This document shows, piece by piece, positions 1 through 6,418 of a stretch of DNA of 7,861 nt. The stretch lies in IMG/VR virus record IMGVR_UViG_2541047171_000018. One strand, 5' to 3'. The position numbers and the translations under genes were made by a program. The DNA comes from a virus. Lineage: Duplodnaviria > Heunggongvirae > Uroviricota > Caudoviricetes. The first letter of the stretch is position 1. Each line of letters opens with the position of its first letter. The notes under the pieces were generated by a model, which was not told where the DNA came from, searched no databases, and saw only the letters and a program-made list of their open reading frames with translations.

Positions 1-94
1 GCCTTCGGTATTGACGGCATGGAACCAGGGGATCCAGCTCGCGCAATTAGCAGAGGGGGCGTAGTAATCCTTGTATACCGGAGTGAAGAGAAAA

Positions 95-313
95 ATGAGC
101 AAGATTGACTATCAGGCACTGCGTGAAAAGGCAGAGAAAGCAACTAAAGGAAGCTACATCGTAGGGCATACATCTGTTAACCAGCACGGCAATTTAACAG
201 GAGTTTTTGTTTGCCAAAAATGGAAAGGAGAACCCGGTGGCGTGATTGCAGAATGTCATGTTAACTGCCTGGTTGAAACAGATGCTCAGGCTTATGCAAC
301 GCTGAATTCATAG
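95..313 (+). CDS. hypothetical lambdoid prophage protein (72 aa from ATG 95; ORF track opens at TTG 71)
   Basis: ORF 71..313 in track; internal ATG at 95 (MSKIDYQ...) is preceded by GGAG about 11 nt upstream. GC-normal phage-like composition. Function not recognised. Confidence 0.4.
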   Translation: MSKIDYQALREKAEKATKGSYIVGHTSVNQHGNLTGVFVCQKWKGEPGGVIAECHVNCLVETDAQAYATLNS

Positions 314-333
314 CAGAGGCTAACCCGGCTACC

Positions 334-993
334 GTGCTGGAACTGCTGGATGAACGGGAAAGAAACCAGCAATACATCAAACGCCGCGACCAGGAGAACG
401 AGGAGATTGCGCTTACGGTTGGGAAGCTGAGAGTTGAGCTGGGAGCAGCAGAGAACAACCTTATTGATAGTGAATGCCATGTTGCTGAACTGGAAGAAGC
501 GCTACGCGATAAGCAGGCGTTACTTGAAGCATCAGAGAAGCGCATAGCAGAACTGGAAGCCGAACTCGTAAGCCAAACTTACAAGTTGCCACACACGCAG
601 TTTGAACAGATTGCTAACCTCTACGAAATGCAATTTGATGACGGTCGCACTTGTGCCTTTCACACTGATGCGCAAAAGGCTGAGCAATGGCTTCAGGCGT
701 GCGACGGAAACAGGGTTCAGGAATACGTTAAGCTGGAACGGTTGCAGAATGCGCTGTCTGGCAACTCTCCGGTAACTCCGGATGGTTGGATAAGTTGTAG
801 TGAGCGAATGCCGGATACCAAAACAGCCGTTCTTGTTGCCGTGGAGTTTGACAGGAAAGGTGACTGGCGAATGAAGTGGGCGACTTACATCCCGGGGCAT
901 CCTGACGCTAATGATGGGTGGATAATTCCTGGTGCGTCGTGGAAACCGTCACACTGGATGCCGCTACCAGAACCGCCGCAGGAGGTGAACTGA
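334..993 (+). CDS. DUF551-type lambdoid prophage protein (Ea22-like architecture: charged coiled-coil-like N-terminal part, C-terminal DUF551-like segment)
   Basis: 219-aa ORF; heptad-like charged region (ELEEALRDKQALLEASEKRIAELEAEL); C-terminal segment ending ...SHWMPLPEPP, which I recall as the hallmark of DUF551 in enterobacterial prophages. Start is uncertain: GTG at 334 is the first start codon and the frame is open only from 277. Confidence 0.55.
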   Translation: MLELLDERERNQQYIKRRDQENEEIALTVGKLRVELGAAENNLIDSECHVAELEEALRDKQALLEASEKRIAELEAELVSQTYKLPHTQFEQIANLYEMQFDDGRTCAFHTDAQKAEQWLQACDGNRVQEYVKLERLQNALSGNSPVTPDGWISCSERMPDTKTAVLVAVEFDRKGDWRMKWATYIPGHPDANDGWIIPGASWKPSHWMPLPEPPQEVN

Positions 994-1388
994 TGGAAAA
1001 TGAAGGCGATAATATCATCACACTGGTGCAGCCAAAGCGCGATGAAGAGAAGCTGCTGAACATTACAGTAACTGGCAGAAAAAACTACACACAACAGAGC
1101 TGTAAGCATCGGGCCATTGAGGTTCATGAACAGGATCACGTTATCCTGTGCTTGCAGTGCGGATGTGTTGTGGACCCTTTTCAGTATGTTCTGCGGTGTG
1201 CGAACGATGGTGAGGCTGTGGTGAGAGAGATTAGACAGCTTCATAACAGACACGATCAGCTCCGAGAATCTGTTGCCAGCCTCGAGCGTGAAGAAAAGAA
1301 CACCAAAGCACGGTTGCGGGCAGCAAGAACTGCAATACTGTATGCGGAAAATGACCTTAAAAATATTGAGCAGAAGGTGAATCAATGA
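993..1388 (+). CDS. hypothetical phage protein with Cys cluster (131 aa from ATG 993)
   Basis: ORF track gives 918..1388, but ATG at 993 is preceded by a strong RBS GGAGGTGA (981-988) and overlaps the upstream stop (TGATG), indicating translational coupling. Contains C-x(16)-C-x2-C-x-C; C-terminal charged helical region. Confidence 0.5.
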   Translation: MENEGDNIITLVQPKRDEEKLLNITVTGRKNYTQQSCKHRAIEVHEQDHVILCLQCGCVVDPFQYVLRCANDGEAVVREIRQLHNRHDQLRESVASLEREEKNTKARLRAARTAILYAENDLKNIEQKVNQ

Positions 1389-1468
1389 CCTGGCCTGAAG
1401 CATTCGCAAATGTAGGAACAGTAATGGCGGTGGTGCTGGTTGTGTATTCGATTTGTCGCTGGAGATAA
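1385..1468 (+). CDS. putative small hydrophobic peptide (27 aa, MTWPEAFANVGTVMAVVLVVYSICRWR)
   Basis: ATG at 1385 overlaps the stop of the upstream gene (ATGA); hydrophobic core typical of a single-pass membrane peptide. Below the ORF-track length cut-off; hand-translated. Confidence 0.2.
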   Translation: MTWPEAFANVGTVMAVVLVVYSICRWR

Positions 1469-1756
1469 AAACGGTTTGCGGGAAAAGGAGAGTTAAGTAG
1501 AATTGCTGCGGGTGCTTGAGGCTATCTGCCTCGGGCATGAACACCAACGGCAGATAGAGAAAAACCCACCCGACTATAAATCAAAGTGTATTACCCCCAT
1601 TTGTTGGACGATGAAATGGGTTTAGTTAACTATGTCGGTATCGACATGACTAAAACAACCTTAAATTGCTCGATTAATAGACAAGTAGTTTTGAAAGATT
1701 AAATTTATGCGATCCGGTATTTTCAAGGGATAGCCTTTATGAGGTTATCTTATGGG

Positions 1757-1787
1757 GTTAAAACATCAAGAACAGTTGTGTTATAAT
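1757..1787 (+). promoter_or_regulatory. putative sigma70 promoter for the methyltransferase (extended -10 TGtTATAAT)
   Basis: TG at 1779-1780 and perfect TATAAT at 1782-1787, about 33 nt upstream of ATG 1820; weak -35 candidate TTAAAA at 1757-1762 with a long 19-nt spacer. Sequence-only prediction. Confidence 0.35.
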
Positions 1788-1819
1788 ACATAGAAACTAA
1801 TAAGAGACGTTGCAACTAT

Positions 1820-2971
1820 ATGAATGTAATAGATTTGTTTTCTGGCGTTGGAGGTCTAAGTCTTGGTGCTGCACGTGCTGGATTTGATGTTAAAATGGCA
1901 GTTGAAATTGATCAACATGCTATTAATACTCACGCAATTAATTTTCCAAGAAGTTTGCACGTCCAAGAAGATGTTTCTTTACTAAATGCAGAAATAATTA
2001 AGGGTTTTTTTAAAAACGATATGCCCATAGATGGTATTATTGGCGGTCCTCCGTGCCAAGGATTTAGTTCAATAGGCAAGGGGAATCCTGATGATAGCAG
2101 GAATCAGCTTTACATGCATTTCTACCGTTTAGTATCAGAATTACAGCCATTATTCTTTTTGGCAGAAAATGTTCCAGGTATTATGCAAGAGAAATATTCT
2201 GGCATTAGAAATAAAGCATTTAATTTGGTTAGCGGTGATTATGATATTCTTGATCCCATCAAGGTAAAAGCATCTGATTATGGTGCTCCAACTATTCGAA
2301 CTAGATATTTTTTTATCGGTGTAAAAAAATCATTGAAGCTTGATATTTCAGATGAAGTATTTATGCCTAAAATGATTGATCCGGTTACTGTAAAAGATGC
2401 TTTGTATGGATTACCAGATATTATCGATGCCAATTGGCAATCAGACTCTGAGAGTTGGCGAACAATTAAAAAAGATCGAAAAGGGGGATTTTATGAAAAA
2501 TTATGGGGGCAGATCCCTCGGAATGTTGGTGATACAGAATCGATCGCTAAGTTAAAAAATAATATCATATCTGGATGTACCGGAACATTACATAGCAAAA
2601 TCGTCCAAGAGCGTTATGCTTCCTTATCTTTTGGGGAAACTGATAAAATTTCAAGATCTACAAGATTAGATCCAAATGGTTTTTGCCCGACTTTAAGGGC
2701 GGGAACCGCTAGAGATAAAGGAAGCTTTCAAGCCGTCAGGCCGATCCACCCTTATCATCCAAGAGTGATTACACCAAGAGAAGCTGCTAGATTACAAGGC
2801 TTCCCTGATTGGTTTCGCTTTCATGTAACTAAATGGCATAGTTTCAGACAAATAGGAAATAGCGTGTCACCAATAGTTGCTGAATATATATTAAAGGGGC
2901 TGTACAATTTATTAAATAAAAGAGTACAGCCCGAATATTTAAACCATAATTCTTTGGAAGTTAGGGTATAA
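1820..2971 (+). CDS. DNA (cytosine-5)-methyltransferase (Dcm-type m5C MTase), 383 aa
   Basis: Canonical m5C-MTase motifs readable in order: motif I FSGVGG (1838-1855), motif IV GGPPCQGFS with catalytic Cys (PCQ at 2051-2059), motif VI ENV (2165-2173), motif VIII-like RTRYFFIGV, motif X QIGNSVSP. Weak RBS AAGAGA upstream. Confidence 0.9.
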   Translation: MNVIDLFSGVGGLSLGAARAGFDVKMAVEIDQHAINTHAINFPRSLHVQEDVSLLNAEIIKGFFKNDMPIDGIIGGPPCQGFSSIGKGNPDDSRNQLYMHFYRLVSELQPLFFLAENVPGIMQEKYSGIRNKAFNLVSGDYDILDPIKVKASDYGAPTIRTRYFFIGVKKSLKLDISDEVFMPKMIDPVTVKDALYGLPDIIDANWQSDSESWRTIKKDRKGGFYEKLWGQIPRNVGDTESIAKLKNNIISGCTGTLHSKIVQERYASLSFGETDKISRSTRLDPNGFCPTLRAGTARDKGSFQAVRPIHPYHPRVITPREAARLQGFPDWFRFHVTKWHSFRQIGNSVSPIVAEYILKGLYNLLNKRVQPEYLNHNSLEVRV

Positions 2972-3931
2972 CCTATAGTATTTATAATAGTTATCCCGTT
3001 CATTTTCGTTTAAAGAGAACTCTTCAGCGGCTGCCTGATATGCTTCTTTATCAGGCAGTTTACTATCTAAATTTATCTTTTCTTTAATTGTTAGTGTTGG
3101 TATTGCTATTTCTTGCACGTCTTCCCAATTTGTTGAATAAAATTGCCAGTTAGAAAGGTCGCATGCCTTAGATAACTCTATATATTCTTGTTCTGAGGAG
3201 AAAAAACCTGATATTGTCAACATGGTATGACTGCCATCATTATATTGATTTAAGGATAATGGGTAATACTGAATCTTATCCTTACGTCCTGAAAGACCAC
3301 GTTCTATTGCTGATCTAAAAGCGTTTGTAATAATTCGTATTAAAAGAGCTTTAATCTTACGATCTGAAAGATCTGCATTTGATATCTGAAGATTAAAATC
3401 AAGATACTTTTTCCCAAGCAATGATTTTAATGAATTAATAAAAGCTTCTTTAAAAATATCTAAACTTTCTCCAACTCTACGTTGGTAATAAGAACTAGGA
3501 TTTATGGGGAAGGTGACCTTCAAAATATCAAAAGAGCTTACTTTAGTACTTAGTAAGTGTATATCATCTAGATCCGTTTGTATTTTTTTCGGGGAGGCAT
3601 AGTCTAACCATGTTATTGATGGTTTAGAAAAACTATAATCAAGAATAAAGTCATGAGCTGATATTAGCTTACAATCAATACAATTATAAGGCAAATTATA
3701 TTTTTGTCTGATGTGAGTAGACTCTTGTTCTTCGAGAGAAATCATATCAGAAAGAGCGATACGATTATGCATGATTCTAAAATCTTCAAGCATCGGACCA
3801 CCAAAACCTATATATGTATATTCTTGAATATTTAGTCTTTTGCTTAAGAGGTTTAGGCTTTCGAGAAAAATCTCTCTATCAATAGACTTATTATGCCTTA
3901 AGTGATAGGGAATGTATTGTCCAGACATCAC
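2939..3931 (-). CDS. hypothetical protein, 330 aa, no recognisable motif; second gene of the - strand operon (candidate effector partner of the GHKL ATPase)
   Basis: Long AT-rich ORF. Its start overlaps the stop of the upstream ATPase gene (minus-strand GTGATG: GTG 3931-3929 or ATG 3928-3926, stop TGA 3930-3928), with RBS GAGGTGA immediately upstream. If ATG is used the CDS is 2939..3928. Confidence 0.7.
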   Translation of the reverse strand: MMSGQYIPYHLRHNKSIDREIFLESLNLLSKRLNIQEYTYIGFGGPMLEDFRIMHNRIALSDMISLEEQESTHIRQKYNLPYNCIDCKLISAHDFILDYSFSKPSITWLDYASPKKIQTDLDDIHLLSTKVSSFDILKVTFPINPSSYYQRRVGESLDIFKEAFINSLKSLLGKKYLDFNLQISNADLSDRKIKALLIRIITNAFRSAIERGLSGRKDKIQYYPLSLNQYNDGSHTMLTISGFFSSEQEYIELSKACDLSNWQFYSTNWEDVQEIAIPTLTIKEKINLDSKLPDKEAYQAAAEEFSLNENERDNYYKYYRLYPNFQRIMV

Positions 3932-5319
3932 TTCACCTCTTCAATCACCGTATCAAAGCATTGCATCCCCACATCAGAAGCGCTAGCATCTTCATGTCCA
4001 AAGAAATATTTAGATAAAATTTTAACATCTTCTTTCTCTCTGGTGAAGATTATTCGTACAGTAGAGCTTTTTTTTACTGGGGTAGGCAGCTTAGGTGTAT
4101 ATCGCCACTCATTTTTGTTTCTATTAGGGTTGGACCAGTTATTTTTTTTATCTTCTGGAGTTGATTGTGGGGTAATTTCAAATAAAGATTGAGCTTCATG
4201 TGACTGAGCTGACTTAAGTAATTTTTTCCCTTCTTCAAGATGCTCACCTTTCCACTGATTGGTGAATCGAATAAAATGCATCATCCCTTCAATCATTTTA
4301 TTTCGTACATCATTGTACAATGTAGAACTAAGATCGACACCTCGTTTCGTTGTTGTTATTGGTAATTTTTCTGGGTTTTTACTGGTAAAGCGAACAACCC
4401 CAGAAATTGCTATAAATTGGGTATGAAACCTTGGTACATTAGCAAAGCCCCAACCTGTGAGATGTGTCTTATCACAATATAGAACAACGCGGTCATTGCA
4501 AATGACAGTCCATCCAGCATCATCAGAACTCCTTTTTTCTAAAACATCATCATTGTCATCTTCTAAATTTTTATAGAAGCCAACAACTAAATCGATATCA
4601 ACATCGTCTATTTTAGCTTTATATATGTATGGTTCTATTTTAGAATGATCAGTTATGATGTTAATCGGATTATGTTCAACAACAACTCCATTTAATTCTA
4701 TTTTAAATCCTTTTTGAATAATAAATGACAATGAGTGTTTTATCTGTAAAAAGAGATCAGTAAGATATGTGCTCTCATTAAATTTTTGTGCCACATTAGA
4801 ATGGAGTTTTTTTATCTCTATAGTTGTGCCTGTTGGATTTTTGTTATCATAGTCACTCTCGTGCATCGGTATTTTCCAACCATCACCATCGATCCAATCA
4901 GGTGTTATATCTACAGTGAATGCGCCATCGGGATTATTCGATTGTATTGAGCAATCTCTACCCATTTTAAAAATGGCTCTTTTCATACCAATACCATAGA
5001 CGCCAACGGTGCCTTCATTTTCTTCTTCTTTTTGATGGGGTCGTCCCATTTTAAAAGCATATTCTCGGAAGCTTTTAGGGATACCTCCGCAATTGTCTTC
5101 TATAATAAAGACATCTTTATTAATCGTAAGTTTCGCATAAAATCCTTCATATGGTTTTGAAGTTTTTTTTGTGTCTTTTATTGTACGTAAAGCCCCATCG
5201 ACGCAGTTATCAAGCAGATCAAGTATGGCATCGTTTAAGTCGATATCTCGAGTTAGCATACTTACAAAAAATCTTTTACTAGGACTAAAGTCTGCTGTTG
5301 GAGTCGTGTTCTCAGTCAT
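3928..5319 (-). CDS. GHKL-superfamily ATPase domain protein (MutL/MORC/Hsp90-type Bergerat fold) with about 290-aa uncharacterised C-terminal region, 463 aa
   Basis: Bergerat-fold motifs in correct order in the N-terminal about 170 aa: N-box DLLDNCVDGA (5191-5220), G1 IEDNCGGI (5080-5103), G2 GVYGIGMK (4981-5004), G3 TGTTIEI (4813-4833). RBS GAGAG upstream of ATG 5319. Confidence 0.8.
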   Translation of the reverse strand: MTENTTPTADFSPSKRFFVSMLTRDIDLNDAILDLLDNCVDGALRTIKDTKKTSKPYEGFYAKLTINKDVFIIEDNCGGIPKSFREYAFKMGRPHQKEEENEGTVGVYGIGMKRAIFKMGRDCSIQSNNPDGAFTVDITPDWIDGDGWKIPMHESDYDNKNPTGTTIEIKKLHSNVAQKFNESTYLTDLFLQIKHSLSFIIQKGFKIELNGVVVEHNPINIITDHSKIEPYIYKAKIDDVDIDLVVGFYKNLEDDNDDVLEKRSSDDAGWTVICNDRVVLYCDKTHLTGWGFANVPRFHTQFIAISGVVRFTSKNPEKLPITTTKRGVDLSSTLYNDVRNKMIEGMMHFIRFTNQWKGEHLEEGKKLLKSAQSHEAQSLFEITPQSTPEDKKNNWSNPNRNKNEWRYTPKLPTPVKKSSTVRIIFTREKEDVKILSKYFFGHEDASASDVGMQCFDTVIEEVK

Positions 5320-5371
5320 AATTTACTCTCTATGTGTTTGGGAAAATAAATACCTTAAGTGCAAATTGTTG

Positions 5372-5399
5372 ATTTTAAACGCTTCGCATGCGAAGTCAA
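5372..5399 (-). promoter_or_regulatory. putative sigma70 promoter of the GHKL-ATPase operon with a palindrome in the spacer
   Basis: Minus-strand -35 TTGACT (plus-strand 5394-5399), 16-nt spacer, -10 TAAAAT (plus-strand 5372-5377), about 50 nt upstream of start 5319. Perfect 14-bp palindrome CTTCGCATGCGAAG (5382-5395) occupies the spacer and overlaps the -35 by 2 bp. Confidence 0.4.
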
Positions 5400-5818
5400 C
5401 GATGTTAAGAAAGAAAGTGCATGTGATCTAACAGTATGTTTTTAAAAAAAGATTAGCTTTATGAGAATTCAGGACTGAATCCCGTGAGAGGAAAATAACA
5501 TATGTTATTGTTGCATTGCTGTGTTGTTTGGGATTTGTTGCACCATTCTGGCGTTGGTATATCTAGTTCGTTGTTCATTTTGTTAATTGTACAACAGGCA
5601 GACAACAGAGAGCTTTTAGCCTAGTTAGCTTACGAAATTAAACAACTAAGATTATCGGCGGGGAGTGGTCACCGCTACTCTTTGGCTAGGAGACTTCAAC
5701 GCAACCGCACACAACCAGCTTCGGCGGGTTTTGTTTTTTCCTGGCATTCTGGTTTACAATTTGCGTGCTAGCTTGAACAACTGGCATCTGCTGCACTGCG
5801 CCATCGAGAGATTGAGAA

Positions 5819-6418
5819 ATGGCGCATATACAACTGGTCAAACAAACTTCTTCTGGTTTACTTCTCCCGGCGACGCCGGAGAGTTGCGATTTTCTGCATC
5901 AAATCAAAATAGGTGAGTGGATACACGCAGATTTTAAGCGTGTGCGTAACTACGCATTCCACAAGCGTTTTTTCAAACTCCTGCAACTGGGATTCGATTA
6001 CTGGACTCCGGTCGGTGGGGCGATCACGCCTCGCGAACGAGAACTGCTGTCTGGTTTCGTTGATTACCTGTGCGAATCAGTTGGTCGGGAACACACGCCA
6101 GCCCTGAGTGATGCCGCAGAGCAATACCTTAACACCGTTGCGACTCGTAGAACCCGGGATACGGCGTTGCTAAAGTCGTTTGAGGCTTTCCGCGAGTGGG
6201 TAACCATTCAGGCCGGATTTTACACCGAGCATATTTATCCGGACGGTAGCCGTGGGCGTCGGGCAAAATCCATCGCTTTTGCGAATATGGACGAAGTCGA
6301 GTTTCAGCAGGTTTATAAATCTGTACTGAATGTGCTGTGGAACTGGATTCTGTTCCGTAAATTCTCCTCTCAGGAGGAAGTTGAAAATGTGGCCGCACAA
6401 CTACTGGAGTTTGCGTAA
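5819..6418 (+). CDS. conserved lambdoid prophage nin-region protein (possibly DUF1367 family), 199 aa
   Basis: GC-normal ORF in the expected position upstream of the YbcO-like gene; stop overlaps the next start (TAATG). Family assignment is from memory of prophage nin regions, not verified. Confidence 0.55.
   Translation: MAHIQLVKQTSSGLLLPATPESCDFLHQIKIGEWIHADFKRVRNYAFHKRFFKLLQLGFDYWTPVGGAITPRERELLSGFVDYLCESVGREHTPALSDAAEQYLNTVATRRTRDTALLKSFEAFREWVTIQAGFYTEHIYPDGSRGRRAKSIAFANMDEVEFQQVYKSVLNVLWNWILFRKFSSQEEVENVAAQLLEFA

What the first reader, a model, noticed from the sequence alone, without database searches (positions are those of the whole stretch)
1560..5650. Candidate undescribed restriction-like defence module: m5C methyltransferase + GHKL ATPase + unknown 330-aa protein, carried as a prophage moron
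Seen in sequence: three AT-rich genes form a compact unit inside GC-normal lambdoid DNA. A complete m5C MTase (1820-2971, +) converges on a translationally coupled two-gene operon (5319 to 2939, -) encoding a GHKL-ATPase-domain protein and a protein without recognisable motifs. Established knowledge: MORC-like GHKL ATPases have been reported in restriction-modification contexts (Iyer, Abhiman and Aravind), and prophage moron sites are hotspots for anti-phage systems. Inference: the MTase protects self DNA while the ATPase and partner form an ATP-dependent restriction/effector complex. Alternatively the - strand pair is a modification-dependent (Type IV-like) system and the MTase is an unrelated passenger. 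I cannot match this gene trio to any named system from memory.
Basis: partly seen in the sequence, partly recalled or inferred. Interest (0 to 1): 0.8.

Follow-up and report, generated by a model that had tools for sequence, protein, structure and literature searches.

The report
Prophage-borne MORC ATPase methylation cassette
An E. coli O157:H7 prophage carries a three-gene cassette (a DNA cytosine methylase, a MORC-type ATPase and a methyltransferase-like partner); the ATPase-partner pair lies next to a DNA methylase in almost all of about 90 loci examined across bacteria, most often inside DISARM anti-phage systems, has no nuclease, and I found no study of it.

Summary
Window 1568-5695 is a 4.1-kb AT-rich island in the Rac-like prophage CP-933R of E. 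coli O157:H7 EDL933. It encodes an m5C DNA methyltransferase (1820-2971, +) converging on a translationally coupled operon: GHKL ATPase (5319-3928) and a 329-aa protein (3928-2939).

In 80 species-representative genomes the two genes are adjacent in 80/80.
- 57 pairs sit inside class-1 DISARM (DrmD-DrmMI-[pair]-DrmA-DrmB-DrmC).
- 21 sit beside an m5C methyltransferase, 10 of them with Vsr.
- 2 are on contigs too short to judge.

Pairs about 90% identical occur in both contexts. No nuclease is conserved in the m5C-type cassettes. PADLOC has no model for either protein, and I found no paper describing the pair.

Best reading: a portable, methylation-linked defence module, with the MTase marking self DNA and the MORC pair acting on unmarked DNA. 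Its chemistry is unknown and defence is untested. This is a new variant of RM/DISARM-type immunity.

The parts
1568..5695 (.). AT-rich inserted island (moron cassette) in the nin region of Rac-like prophage CP-933R
   Evidence: GC drops to 0.28-0.40. Homology to an island-free prophage (strain RSHH22, L096) stops at 1567 and resumes at 5696, where that prophage has about 320 bp with hok.
1758..1787 (+). Candidate promoter of the m5C methyltransferase gene (TTAAAA-18-TATAAT with upstream TG)
   Evidence: Best + strand consensus match, 33 nt upstream of the ATG. This is a consensus match only; function was not shown.
1820..2971 (+). C5-cytosine DNA methyltransferase, 383 aa
   Evidence: PF00145 at 2.6e-61, TIGR00675 dcm at 9.6e-46, PADLOC MTase_II at 2e-98. 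Motifs GGPPCQGFS, ENVPG and QIGNSV are visible in the translation. Identical over residues 1-367 to PDB chain 3G7U_A.
2939..2971 (.). 33-bp overlap of the convergent 3' ends of the methyltransferase gene and the PF20553 gene
   Evidence: Read directly from the sequence. The same convergent overlap is seen in the Klebsiella, Enterobacter and Methylomonas loci.
2939..3928 (-). PF20553 (Methyltransf_35) protein, 329 aa from ATG 3928 (330 aa from GTG 3931): class I SAM-methyltransferase fold, obligate partner of the ATPase
3928..5319 (-). MORC-type GHKL ATPase, 463 aa (GHKL domain, S5 transducer, about 130-aa helical C-terminal extension)
5372..5399 (-). Candidate promoter of the ATPase-PF20553 operon (TTGACT-16-TAAAAT), with the palindrome TTCGCATGCGAA in its spacer
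   Evidence: Best - strand consensus match, 53 nt upstream of the ATG. The -35 and -10 elements are conserved in the Klebsiella and Enterobacter orthologous loci. Function was not shown.

Best explanation
The island is a self-contained, horizontally mobile, methylation-linked immunity cassette carried as a prophage moron.

Shown:
- Its core is an obligate two-protein module: a MORC-type GHKL ATPase and a SAM-methyltransferase-fold partner (PF20553), translated from one coupled operon.
- In almost every locus examined, this module is encoded next to a DNA methyltransferase. The partner is either the N6-adenine DrmMI of class-1 DISARM or, as here, a stand-alone C5-cytosine methyltransferase, with or without Vsr.

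Inferred:
- The C5-methyltransferase marks the lysogen's DNA as self.
- The MORC ATPase dimerises on ATP and clamps DNA, as characterised MORC, MutL and topoisomerase GHKL modules do.
- With its SAM-bound partner it acts on DNA that lacks the host's methylation, blocking replication or expression of incoming phage or plasmid DNA.
- Nearly identical modules serve m6A and m5C methyltransferases of unrelated specificity. The module therefore probably does not read a specific methylated sequence itself. It more likely uses the neighbouring methyltransferase, or a generic property of methylated versus unmethylated DNA.
- No nuclease is present. The effector step is therefore either non-nucleolytic (compaction, silencing, or a chemical mark placed by the partner), or delegated to other nucleases (DrmC/DrmAB in DISARM, host nucleases here).
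For: - Obligate pair: the ATPase gene lies immediately upstream of the PF20553 gene in 80/80 species-representative loci and in every further locus examined. The stop and start codons overlap in the window.
- Methyltransferase linkage: 57/80 are in DrmD-DrmMI-[pair]-DrmA-DrmB-DrmC, 21/80 are beside an m5C MTase (10 with Vsr), and 2/80 are on 2-4 kb contigs. No locus has both contexts. DISARM identities were confirmed with PADLOC on L037 and L070.
- R-gene position: in many m5C-type loci the order is M-(V)-ATPase-PF20553 on one strand with overlapping or abutting genes, the slot an R gene occupies in M-V-R operons.
- Portability: DISARM-context and m5C-context pairs interleave in the ATPase and PF20553 trees and reach 89.6% and 84% identity.
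- Both proteins look catalytically competent.
- Mobile, defence-typical locations: nin-region or end-of-prophage morons in E. coli, Klebsiella, Yersinia and Enterobacter. The accessory (moron) end of Pf inovirus PfAC20, the region where sister Pf phages carry defence genes. Insertion at a hok/sok locus. Cassettes dropped between housekeeping genes in Methylomonas and others.
Against: - No experiment exists; defence is inferred from context only.
- No nuclease or other recognisable effector domain was found in either protein, and no further conserved gene occurs in m5C-type cassettes.
- The partner keeps all SAM-binding motifs. It may simply be a second modification enzyme rather than a sensor or effector.
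- Two cyanobacterial lineages carry the pair with no methyltransferase within 8-9 kb. The pair is therefore not necessarily lethal without an adjacent MTase.
- Its substrate (DNA, RNA, protein or small molecule) could not be determined. Pfam labels it a putative O-methyltransferase, while the fold searches put Trm1 (a tRNA N2-guanine methyltransferase) first.
Confidence: 0.45

Rival explanations
1. The pair is an ATP-dependent second modification enzyme, not an effector. The PF20553 protein methylates DNA (or another nucleic acid) with help from the MORC clamp. The cassette would then be a dual-modification module. It would either add a second self-mark, as DrmMII does in some class-1 DISARM systems, or, in prophages, protect phage DNA from restriction in new hosts.
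For: - SAM-binding and motif IV residues are 94-100% conserved in 143 diverse members.
- The nearest solved folds are nucleic-acid methyltransferases: Trm1, RsmD-like, RlmI.
- There is no nuclease anywhere in the cassette.
- None of the 57 DISARM loci with the pair has an m5C DrmMII within 7 kb. Some class-1 DISARM systems are reported to carry DrmMII as a second methylase (bioRxiv 10.1101/2021.12.28.474362).
- From my own knowledge, phage nin regions often carry orphan methyltransferases.
Against: - A protective modification would not need to be strictly linked to another methyltransferase (78/80).
- The M-V-[pair] operon layout mimics M-V-R.
- In the window the pair has its own promoter, convergent with the MTase gene.
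- Most occurrences are chromosomal defence operons, not phages.
Confidence: 0.25
2. The pair is a repair or maintenance accessory of cytosine methylation. It would be a MutL-like matchmaker that stimulates Vsr nicking at T:G mismatches made by 5mC deamination, or that controls the methyltransferase. It would not be an immune effector.
For: - Vsr is present in 13 of 27 m5C-type loci, sometimes directly upstream of the ATPase in the same operon.
- MutL is known to stimulate E. coli Vsr (my own knowledge; the analogy is drawn by Iyer et al. 2008, PMC2292703).
Against: - 57/80 pairs are in DISARM loci with an adenine methyltransferase and neither an m5C MTase nor a Vsr.
- Half of the m5C-type loci, including the window, have no Vsr.
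- This reading gives no role to a conserved SAM-methyltransferase partner.
Confidence: 0.1
3. The minus-strand pair is a modification-dependent (Type IV-like) or abortive-infection system. The m5C methyltransferase is an unrelated passenger or merely a neighbour in a defence island.
For: The pair occurs without an adjacent methyltransferase in two cyanobacterial lineages, next to other defence-like genes such as Uma2, AAA_15/AAA_21 and Mrr_cat.
Against: - 78 of 80 pairs are adjacent to a DNA methyltransferase and the other two are on truncated contigs.
- Genes overlap in single operons.
- The exact trio is conserved from E. coli to Leptospira, Methylomonas and a Pseudomonas inovirus.
- A Type IV enzyme beside a methyltransferase would risk attacking its own host's DNA.
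Confidence: 0.05
4. The GHKL protein is a kinase of a two-component-like regulator that controls expression of the methyltransferase or of prophage genes.
For: Weak sequence hits to HATPase_c (E 0.0042) and to the sensor kinase DpiB (E 0.0033). GHKL kinases that regulate defence operons do exist, for example CapK (PMC13373217) and Ambrosia (bioRxiv 10.1101/2025.09.30.679545).
Against: - An S5 transducer domain with the MORC signature motif is present.
- There is no DHp, receiver, STAS or HTH partner.
Confidence: 0.03

Closest known systems
Prokaryotic MORC / paraMORC ATPases of restriction-modification neighbourhoods (Iyer, Abhiman and Aravind 2008, PMC2292703)
   Same: GHKL + S5 ATPase carrying the MORC-specific GhXhhpXXRhl motif. 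Encoded next to cytosine methylases and Vsr, or with SWI2/SNF2 helicases. Patchy, laterally mobile distribution.
   Different: That work is a purely computational prediction. Its text, as read here, does not describe a methyltransferase-fold partner, and it predates DISARM. It expected helicases or RE-fold nucleases as partners, and neither is present in this cassette. The paraMORC2 ExxxH motif is not conserved in this family.
Class-1 DISARM (DrmD, DrmMI, DrmA, DrmB, DrmC)
   Same: 57 of 80 relatives of the pair lie inside such operons between DrmMI and DrmA. Both use methylation as the self mark, and in both the way unmethylated DNA is neutralised is unresolved.
   Different: The window has none of the five Drm genes. 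The DISARM papers searched do not mention a GHKL/MORC or PF20553 component. PADLOC DISARM models do not hit either protein.
Type II m5C restriction-modification operons with Vsr (M-V-R)
   Same: A C5-MTase with all catalytic motifs. Frequent Vsr in related cassettes. Compact mobile cassette, with the pair in the position of the R gene.
   Different: No endonuclease fold was detected. The 'R' slot holds an ATPase plus a second methyltransferase-fold protein. The same pair also serves an unrelated m6A methyltransferase at about 90% identity, which a sequence-specific R enzyme could not do.
[not shown]
   Same: A GHKL ATPase associated with DNA methylases in predicted or validated defence loci.
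Eukaryotic MORC and SMCHD1 silencing ATPases
   Different: No CW, coiled-coil or hinge domains. The C-terminal extension differs. The eukaryotic proteins have no PF20553-type partner. The biochemical behaviour of this bacterial protein is untested.

Membership tests
C5-cytosine DNA methyltransferase (PF00145 / dcm) | Profile match above the curated cut-off and catalytic motifs IV (PCQ), VI (ENV) and X (GNS) | tested here: met
   PF00145 scores 208 bits against a cut-off of 22; TIGR00675 scores 157 against 100.65. GGPPCQGFS, AENVPG and QIGNSV are in the translation. Identical to PDB 3G7U_A over 367 residues.
MORC family of GHKL ATPases | Four GHKL ATP-binding motifs | tested here: met
   Invariant D34-x3-N38-x2-D41G, D75-N-C-G-G, G106-x-Y-G-I-G-M-K and G164-T in 28-29 diverse homologues.
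MORC family of GHKL ATPases | S5-fold transducer domain following the GHKL domain, with a conserved basic residue | tested here: met
   [not shown]
MORC family of GHKL ATPases | MORC-specific GhXhhpXXRhl motif in the S5 domain (Iyer et al. 2008) | tested here: met
   GWT[VI][LFI]CNDR[AV]V is found in 78 of 78 ATPases of the family, and as GWTVICNDRVV at residues 269-279 in the window protein.
MORC family of GHKL ATPases | ATP-driven dimerisation and DNA clamping or compaction | not testable with these tools
   This needs biochemistry. No multimer prediction was available.
PF20553 Methyltransf_35 (putative O-methyltransferase) | Full-length profile match above the gathering score | tested here: met
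   300.4 bits against a cut-off of 27, covering residues 2-329 of 330. All 21 aligned members match.
PF20553 Methyltransf_35 (putative O-methyltransferase) | Class I SAM-methyltransferase fold with cofactor-binding motifs | tested here: met
   [not shown]
PF20553 Methyltransf_35 (putative O-methyltransferase) | O-methylation as the reaction, and the identity of the substrate | not testable with these tools
   The fold neighbours include N-, C- and O-methyltransferases of RNA, small molecules and proteins. A possible K14/D109/K137/D231 arrangement resembling the K-D-K-E tetrad of 2'-O-methyltransferases is only a lead from the alignment. It was not checked in three dimensions.
Type II restriction-modification system | A cognate restriction endonuclease (a nuclease fold with the same specificity as the methyltransferase) | tested here: not met
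   No nuclease family appears in Pfam, PADLOC or NCBIfam for either protein. Fold searches give only GHKL/MORC and methyltransferase folds. No further conserved gene exists in 27 m5C-type loci. REBASE could not be consulted.
Class-1 DISARM | Presence of DrmA, DrmB, DrmC with DrmD and DrmMI | tested here: not met
   None of these genes is in the window or within 12 kb in EDL933. They are present around 57 of 80 relatives of the pair.
[not shown]
   MzaB scores 12.4 bits against a cut-off of 850. There are no such partners.
Prophage moron | Foreign-composition insert with its own promoter, absent from otherwise syntenic prophages | tested here: met
   GC profile. Island-free site in strain RSHH22. 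Promoter-like sites. The same cassette occurs in different prophage backbones. Expression in lysogens was not tested.
Anti-phage defence system (functional class) | Reduction of phage infection or of foreign DNA uptake when present | not testable with these tools
   There is only guilt by association: DISARM embedding and location in the accessory (moron) regions of phages, where sister Pf phages carry defence genes.

The most novel reading that the evidence does not exclude
A nuclease-free bacterial immune mechanism. A true MORC ATPase, with a SAM-dependent methyltransferase partner, clamps and silences (or chemically marks) DNA that lacks the host's methylation. It would work interchangeably with m5C or m6A methyltransferases and would form an unrecognised sixth and seventh component of many class-1 DISARM systems. 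That would make it the prokaryotic counterpart, and plausibly the ancestor, of eukaryotic MORC-based, methylation-linked silencing of transposons and viruses.
Probability: 0.15. Interest if true: 0.9.

Novelty: new variant of a known kind. Interest (0 to 1): 0.68.

Why it matters
- Annotation gap: a widespread two-gene module is invisible to current defence annotation. The PF20553 partner alone has at least 1,800 clusters at 50% identity. The cassette is scored as an 'orphan' or 'incomplete RM' methyltransferase, as in Pf phage PfAC20 (PMC11878078).
- DISARM: most members examined sit inside class-1 DISARM, whose way of neutralising DNA is unresolved and whose nuclease DrmC is dispensable. Two overlooked conserved genes in those operons could be part of the answer.
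- Eukaryotic MORCs: the ATPase is a true MORC. A tractable E. coli system in which a MORC works with DNA methylation would let the long-standing prediction of Iyer et al. (2008) be tested directly. That prediction is that eukaryotic MORC silencing descends from bacterial RM-like systems.
- Practical relevance: the cassette sits in EHEC O157:H7 and O111 prophages (172 of 5,426 complete E. coli genomes). It may contribute to their phage resistance and methylome.

Tried and rejected
- Sequence search of both minus-strand proteins against PDB chains found nothing usable.
- PADLOC and NCBIfam have no family for either protein. The weak MzaB and DpiB hits were rejected on score.
- Permissive Pfam scans of 21 PF20553 members found no second family that would hint at a substrate.
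- paraMORC2 membership was rejected. The ExxxH seen in the E. coli protein (EGMMH) is not conserved in the family.
- I looked for a hidden nuclease. The conserved D231...E283-K284 of the partner lies in beta-6 and a helix N-terminus of the methyltransferase fold, not in a PD-(D/E)xK arrangement. The NDR/H299/Q301 residues of the ATPase lie in the S5 domain that aligns with MORC. Neither is evidence of a nuclease.
- I looked for further conserved genes in 27 m5C-type loci and found none.
- A supposed natural knock-out of the MTase in a Yersinia record was only a missed gene call. The DNA is identical to a record with the gene.
- The palindrome TTCGCATGCGAA in the ATPase promoter is only partly conserved in Klebsiella and absent in Enterobacter and Yersinia, so I make no operator claim.
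- Literature searches for PF20553, the three RefSeq protein accessions, DISARM+GHKL, and MORC+anti-phage+methyltransferase+bacterial found no description of the pair.
- Ofir et al. 2018, the original DISARM paper, is not held in the library, so I could not check its figures or supplement.
- The AFDB Foldseek library was unavailable.


Full report
**1. What is in the sequence**

The window is 100% identical to the Rac-like prophage CP-933R of E. coli O157:H7 EDL933. It covers the region between the replication genes and the DUF1367 / YbcO / antiterminator-Q genes, i.e. the nin region.

- m5C methyltransferase, 1820-2971 (+), 383 aa
- GHKL ATPase, 5319-3928 (-), 463 aa
- a third protein, 3931/3928-2939 (-), 330 or 329 aa

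GC content is 0.28-0.40 across about 1500-5700 and 0.45-0.56 on either side.

The ATPase stop codon overlaps the next start (TGATG), with a GAGGTG Shine-Dalgarno sequence upstream. The two convergent units overlap by 33 bp at their 3' ends.

The best promoter-like sites lie just upstream of each unit, at 1758-1787 (+) and 5399-5372 (-). The total number of such sites in the region is not above chance, so only their position counts.

A syntenic prophage without the island (strain RSHH22) fixes the borders. Homology stops at window 1567 and resumes at 5696. In that prophage the site holds about 320 bp with a hok toxin gene. A sub-threshold sok-like RNA match remains at 1510-1634.

172 of 5,426 complete E. 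coli genomes carry the island, all at 99% identity or more.

**2. What the three proteins are**

*The methyltransferase* is a complete C5-cytosine DNA methyltransferase. It matches PF00145 at 2.6e-61 and has the PCQ, ENV and GNS motifs. It is identical over residues 1-367 to PDB chain 3G7U_A. That entry is a structural-genomics deposit, and I found no functional paper on it.

*The ATPase* matches PF13589. Twenty-eight to twenty-nine homologues at 40-87% identity keep all four GHKL motifs and an invariant TTK325. An AlphaFold2 model (pLDDT 83) is most similar to:

The family carries the motif that Iyer et al. (2008) gave as diagnostic of MORCs, GhXhhpXXRhl in the S5 domain. Here it reads GWT[VI][LFI]CNDR[AV]V and is present in 78 of 78 family members. 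I therefore file the protein as a prokaryotic MORC, not merely 'MORC-like'. About 130 C-terminal residues form a helical extension with no detectable relatives.

- It matches Pfam PF20553 (Methyltransf_35, 'putative O-methyltransferase') at 2e-89 over its full length.
- Its model (pLDDT 88) is a seven-stranded class I SAM-methyltransferase.
- In 143 members only 27-38% identical to it, motif I G43, motif II E66 and motif IV W107-D109-Y110 are 94-100% conserved. So is an N-terminal Y8-x-x-R11-x-x-K14-x3-R18 motif.
- It thus looks like an active enzyme, but its substrate cannot be deduced.
- The family has 2,214 clusters at 50% identity (1,804 at E 1e-10 or better) among 1.84 billion representatives. 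Nearly all are stand-alone proteins of about 320-345 aa.

**3. Context across bacteria (the main new result)**

I scanned one genome per species (GTDB) with the PF20553 alignment. This returned 80 loci from many phyla. Scoring all ORFs with the window proteins and with DISARM proteins gave the following.

| Context | Loci (of 80) |
|---|---|
| ATPase gene immediately upstream of the PF20553 gene | 80 |
| Inside class-1 DISARM, order DrmD-DrmMI-[ATPase-PF20553]-DrmA-DrmB-DrmC | 57 |
| Next to an m5C methyltransferase, no DISARM genes | 21 (10 with Vsr) |
| On 2-4 kb contigs too short to judge | 2 |
| Both DISARM and an m5C methyltransferase | 0 |

PADLOC confirmed the DISARM components on two loci.

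Further look-ups agree:
- Leptospira and Methylomonas carry Vsr, ATPase, PF20553 and a convergent m5C MTase.
- Two metagenomic genomes carry M-ATPase-PF20553 operons set among housekeeping genes.
- Klebsiella aerogenes, Yersinia enterocolitica and Enterobacter asburiae carry the same trio in other prophages.
- The Pseudomonas inovirus PfAC20 carries ATPase-PF20553-m5C MTase in its accessory (moron) region, where sister Pf phages carry defence genes. The paper describing it lists it as an incomplete RM system with only a cytosine methyltransferase.
- Only two cyanobacterial lineages have the pair with no methyltransferase nearby.

In 27 m5C-type loci no other gene is conserved. The cassette is therefore M, sometimes V, the ATPase and PF20553, and nothing else. 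Often these form one strand-continuous operon, with the pair where an R gene would sit.

**4. The module is portable**

In neighbour-joining trees of both proteins the window's version belongs to a deep clade, together with Methylomonas, Leptospira, Scytonema and Achromobacter. In the large remaining clade, DISARM-context and m5C-context pairs are interleaved.

Pairs from the two contexts reach 89.6% (ATPase) and 84% (PF20553) identity, for example Bauldia litoralis (DISARM) versus a Hyphomicrobiaceae genome (M-V-pair).

The associated m5C methyltransferases also fall into at least two distant groups (E-values from 1e-134 down to 1e-12 against the window enzyme).

The same module thus works beside methyltransferases of different chemistry and specificity. 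This argues that it does not itself recognise one particular methylated sequence.

**5. Mechanism**

Shown:
- an obligate MORC-ATPase / methyltransferase-fold pair
- near-universal linkage to a DNA methyltransferase
- embedding in a validated defence system in most cases
- residence in mobile, defence-typical locations
- conserved catalytic residues in both proteins
- no nuclease

Inferred, and my best reading (confidence 0.45): the cassette is a methylation-linked immunity module. The m5C enzyme marks self DNA. The ATP-driven MORC clamp, with its SAM-bound partner, acts on unmarked incoming DNA. The effector step is either non-nucleolytic or handed to other nucleases.

Rivals:
- The pair is a second, ATP-assisted modification enzyme (0.25). 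This is favoured by the intact SAM motifs, the lack of a nuclease, and the absence of DrmMII from all 57 DISARM loci that carry the pair.
- The pair is a MutL-like accessory for Vsr repair or methylation maintenance (0.1). This is disfavoured by the DISARM majority, which has neither m5C MTase nor Vsr.
- The pair is a Type IV or abortive-infection system with a passenger MTase (0.05). This is contradicted by the 78/80 linkage.
- The ATPase is a regulatory kinase (0.03). This is contradicted by the fold comparison.

**6. Relation to what is known**

The nearest description is the 2008 computational paper on MORC and paraMORC ATPases in RM neighbourhoods (PMC2292703). It noted methylases, Vsr and SWI2/SNF2 helicases next to prokaryotic MORCs. 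Its text does not mention a methyltransferase-fold partner, and it predates DISARM.

The DISARM class-1 study, the 2025 YprA/ARMADA survey, the two-component/paraMORC paper and the modularity-network preprint do not mention this pair.

No paper in the library contains PF20553 or the three RefSeq accessions. PADLOC v2 has no model for either protein.

I could not read Ofir et al. 2018, REBASE or the current DefenseFinder models. The claim of novelty carries that caveat.

I rate it a new variant of a known kind: methylation-based RM/DISARM-type immunity with a MORC ATPase. It is not categorically new, because the general association was predicted and no function is yet demonstrated.

**7. Verdict**

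Its interpretation is partly supported: the conserved trio, the MORC-like ATPase, the moron status and the lack of a named system all hold. It needs three corrections:
- The 'unknown' protein is a SAM-methyltransferase-fold enzyme.
- There is no nuclease, so classical restriction is not shown.
- The core pair is chiefly a component of class-1 DISARM loci.

Interest is 0.68. A specialist would be surprised to find two unannotated conserved genes inside most of the DISARM-I loci sampled, and a true MORC working with DNA methylases in an E. coli prophage. The system is directly testable in its native, genetically tractable host.

Noticed in passing
window 1510-1634 (+), and the island border at 1567/1568: There is a sub-threshold Rfam match to the sok antitoxin RNA (46.4 bits against a gathering score of 59, E 3.8e-8). 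In island-free relatives the site holds a hok/sok locus (hok or hokD is annotated there). No intact hok ORF remains in the window, so the cassette seems to have replaced the toxin gene of a type I toxin-antitoxin locus.
   Followed up: partly
window 5378-5389 (- strand), within the promoter 5399-5372: A perfect 12-bp palindrome, TTCGCATGCGAA, fills the spacer between the -35 and -10 elements of the ATPase operon promoter. It could be an operator, or could contain the methyltransferase target. It is only partly kept in Klebsiella (TTCCCTAGAGAA) and is absent in Enterobacter and Yersinia.
   Followed up: partly
window 1385-1468 (+): An unannotated 27-codon ORF encodes a hydrophobic peptide (MTWPEAFANVGTVMAVVLVVYSICRWR). 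Its ATG overlaps the stop of the preceding gene (ATGA). It may be a small membrane peptide or may be chance.
   Followed up: no
window 1820-2971: The methyltransferase is identical over residues 1-367 to the solved structure PDB 3G7U chain A, named only 'Cytosine-specific methyltransferase'. Its target sequence appears not to be reported in the papers searched.
   Followed up: partly
L097 (Pseudomonas phage PfAC20, PP058144) 280-3711: A filamentous Pf prophage carries the same trio (ATPase, PF20553, m5C MTase, all on one strand) in its accessory (moron) region. A second, shorter cytosine methyltransferase gene lies at 5438-6082. The source paper scored the phage as having an incomplete defence system.
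   Followed up: partly
L004/L005 (Scytonema hofmannii) 8001-10438 and L100 (Oscillatoriaceae) 9001-11441: In these cyanobacteria the ATPase-PF20553 pair has no DNA methyltransferase within 8-9 kb. It sits near Uma2, Mrr_cat and AAA_15/AAA_21 genes. These are the only clear exceptions to the methyltransferase linkage.
   Followed up: no
L070 (Spirochaetota MAG) 1420-5448 and 8224-12033: Two DrmMI-like N6-adenine methyltransferase paralogues flank the pair, with different C-terminal target-recognition domains (MmeI_TRD versus TaqI_C). A small Mrr_cat nuclease gene lies at 770-1411.
   Followed up: no
window 71-313 and 334-993 (+): The Ead/Ea22 profile is split between two consecutive ORFs: profile positions 1-56 in the first and 69-139 in the second, which continues into DUF551. 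RefSeq annotates this stretch differently, including a frameshifted DUF4014 pseudogene. The early-region genes left of the island therefore look partly decayed.
   Followed up: no
L092 (Yersinia enterocolitica GCA_028838665) 10052-11152: The public gene calls for this record omit the m5C methyltransferase, although the DNA is 100% identical to a record where it is called. This is an annotation gap that could be misread as loss of the methyltransferase.
   Followed up: yes
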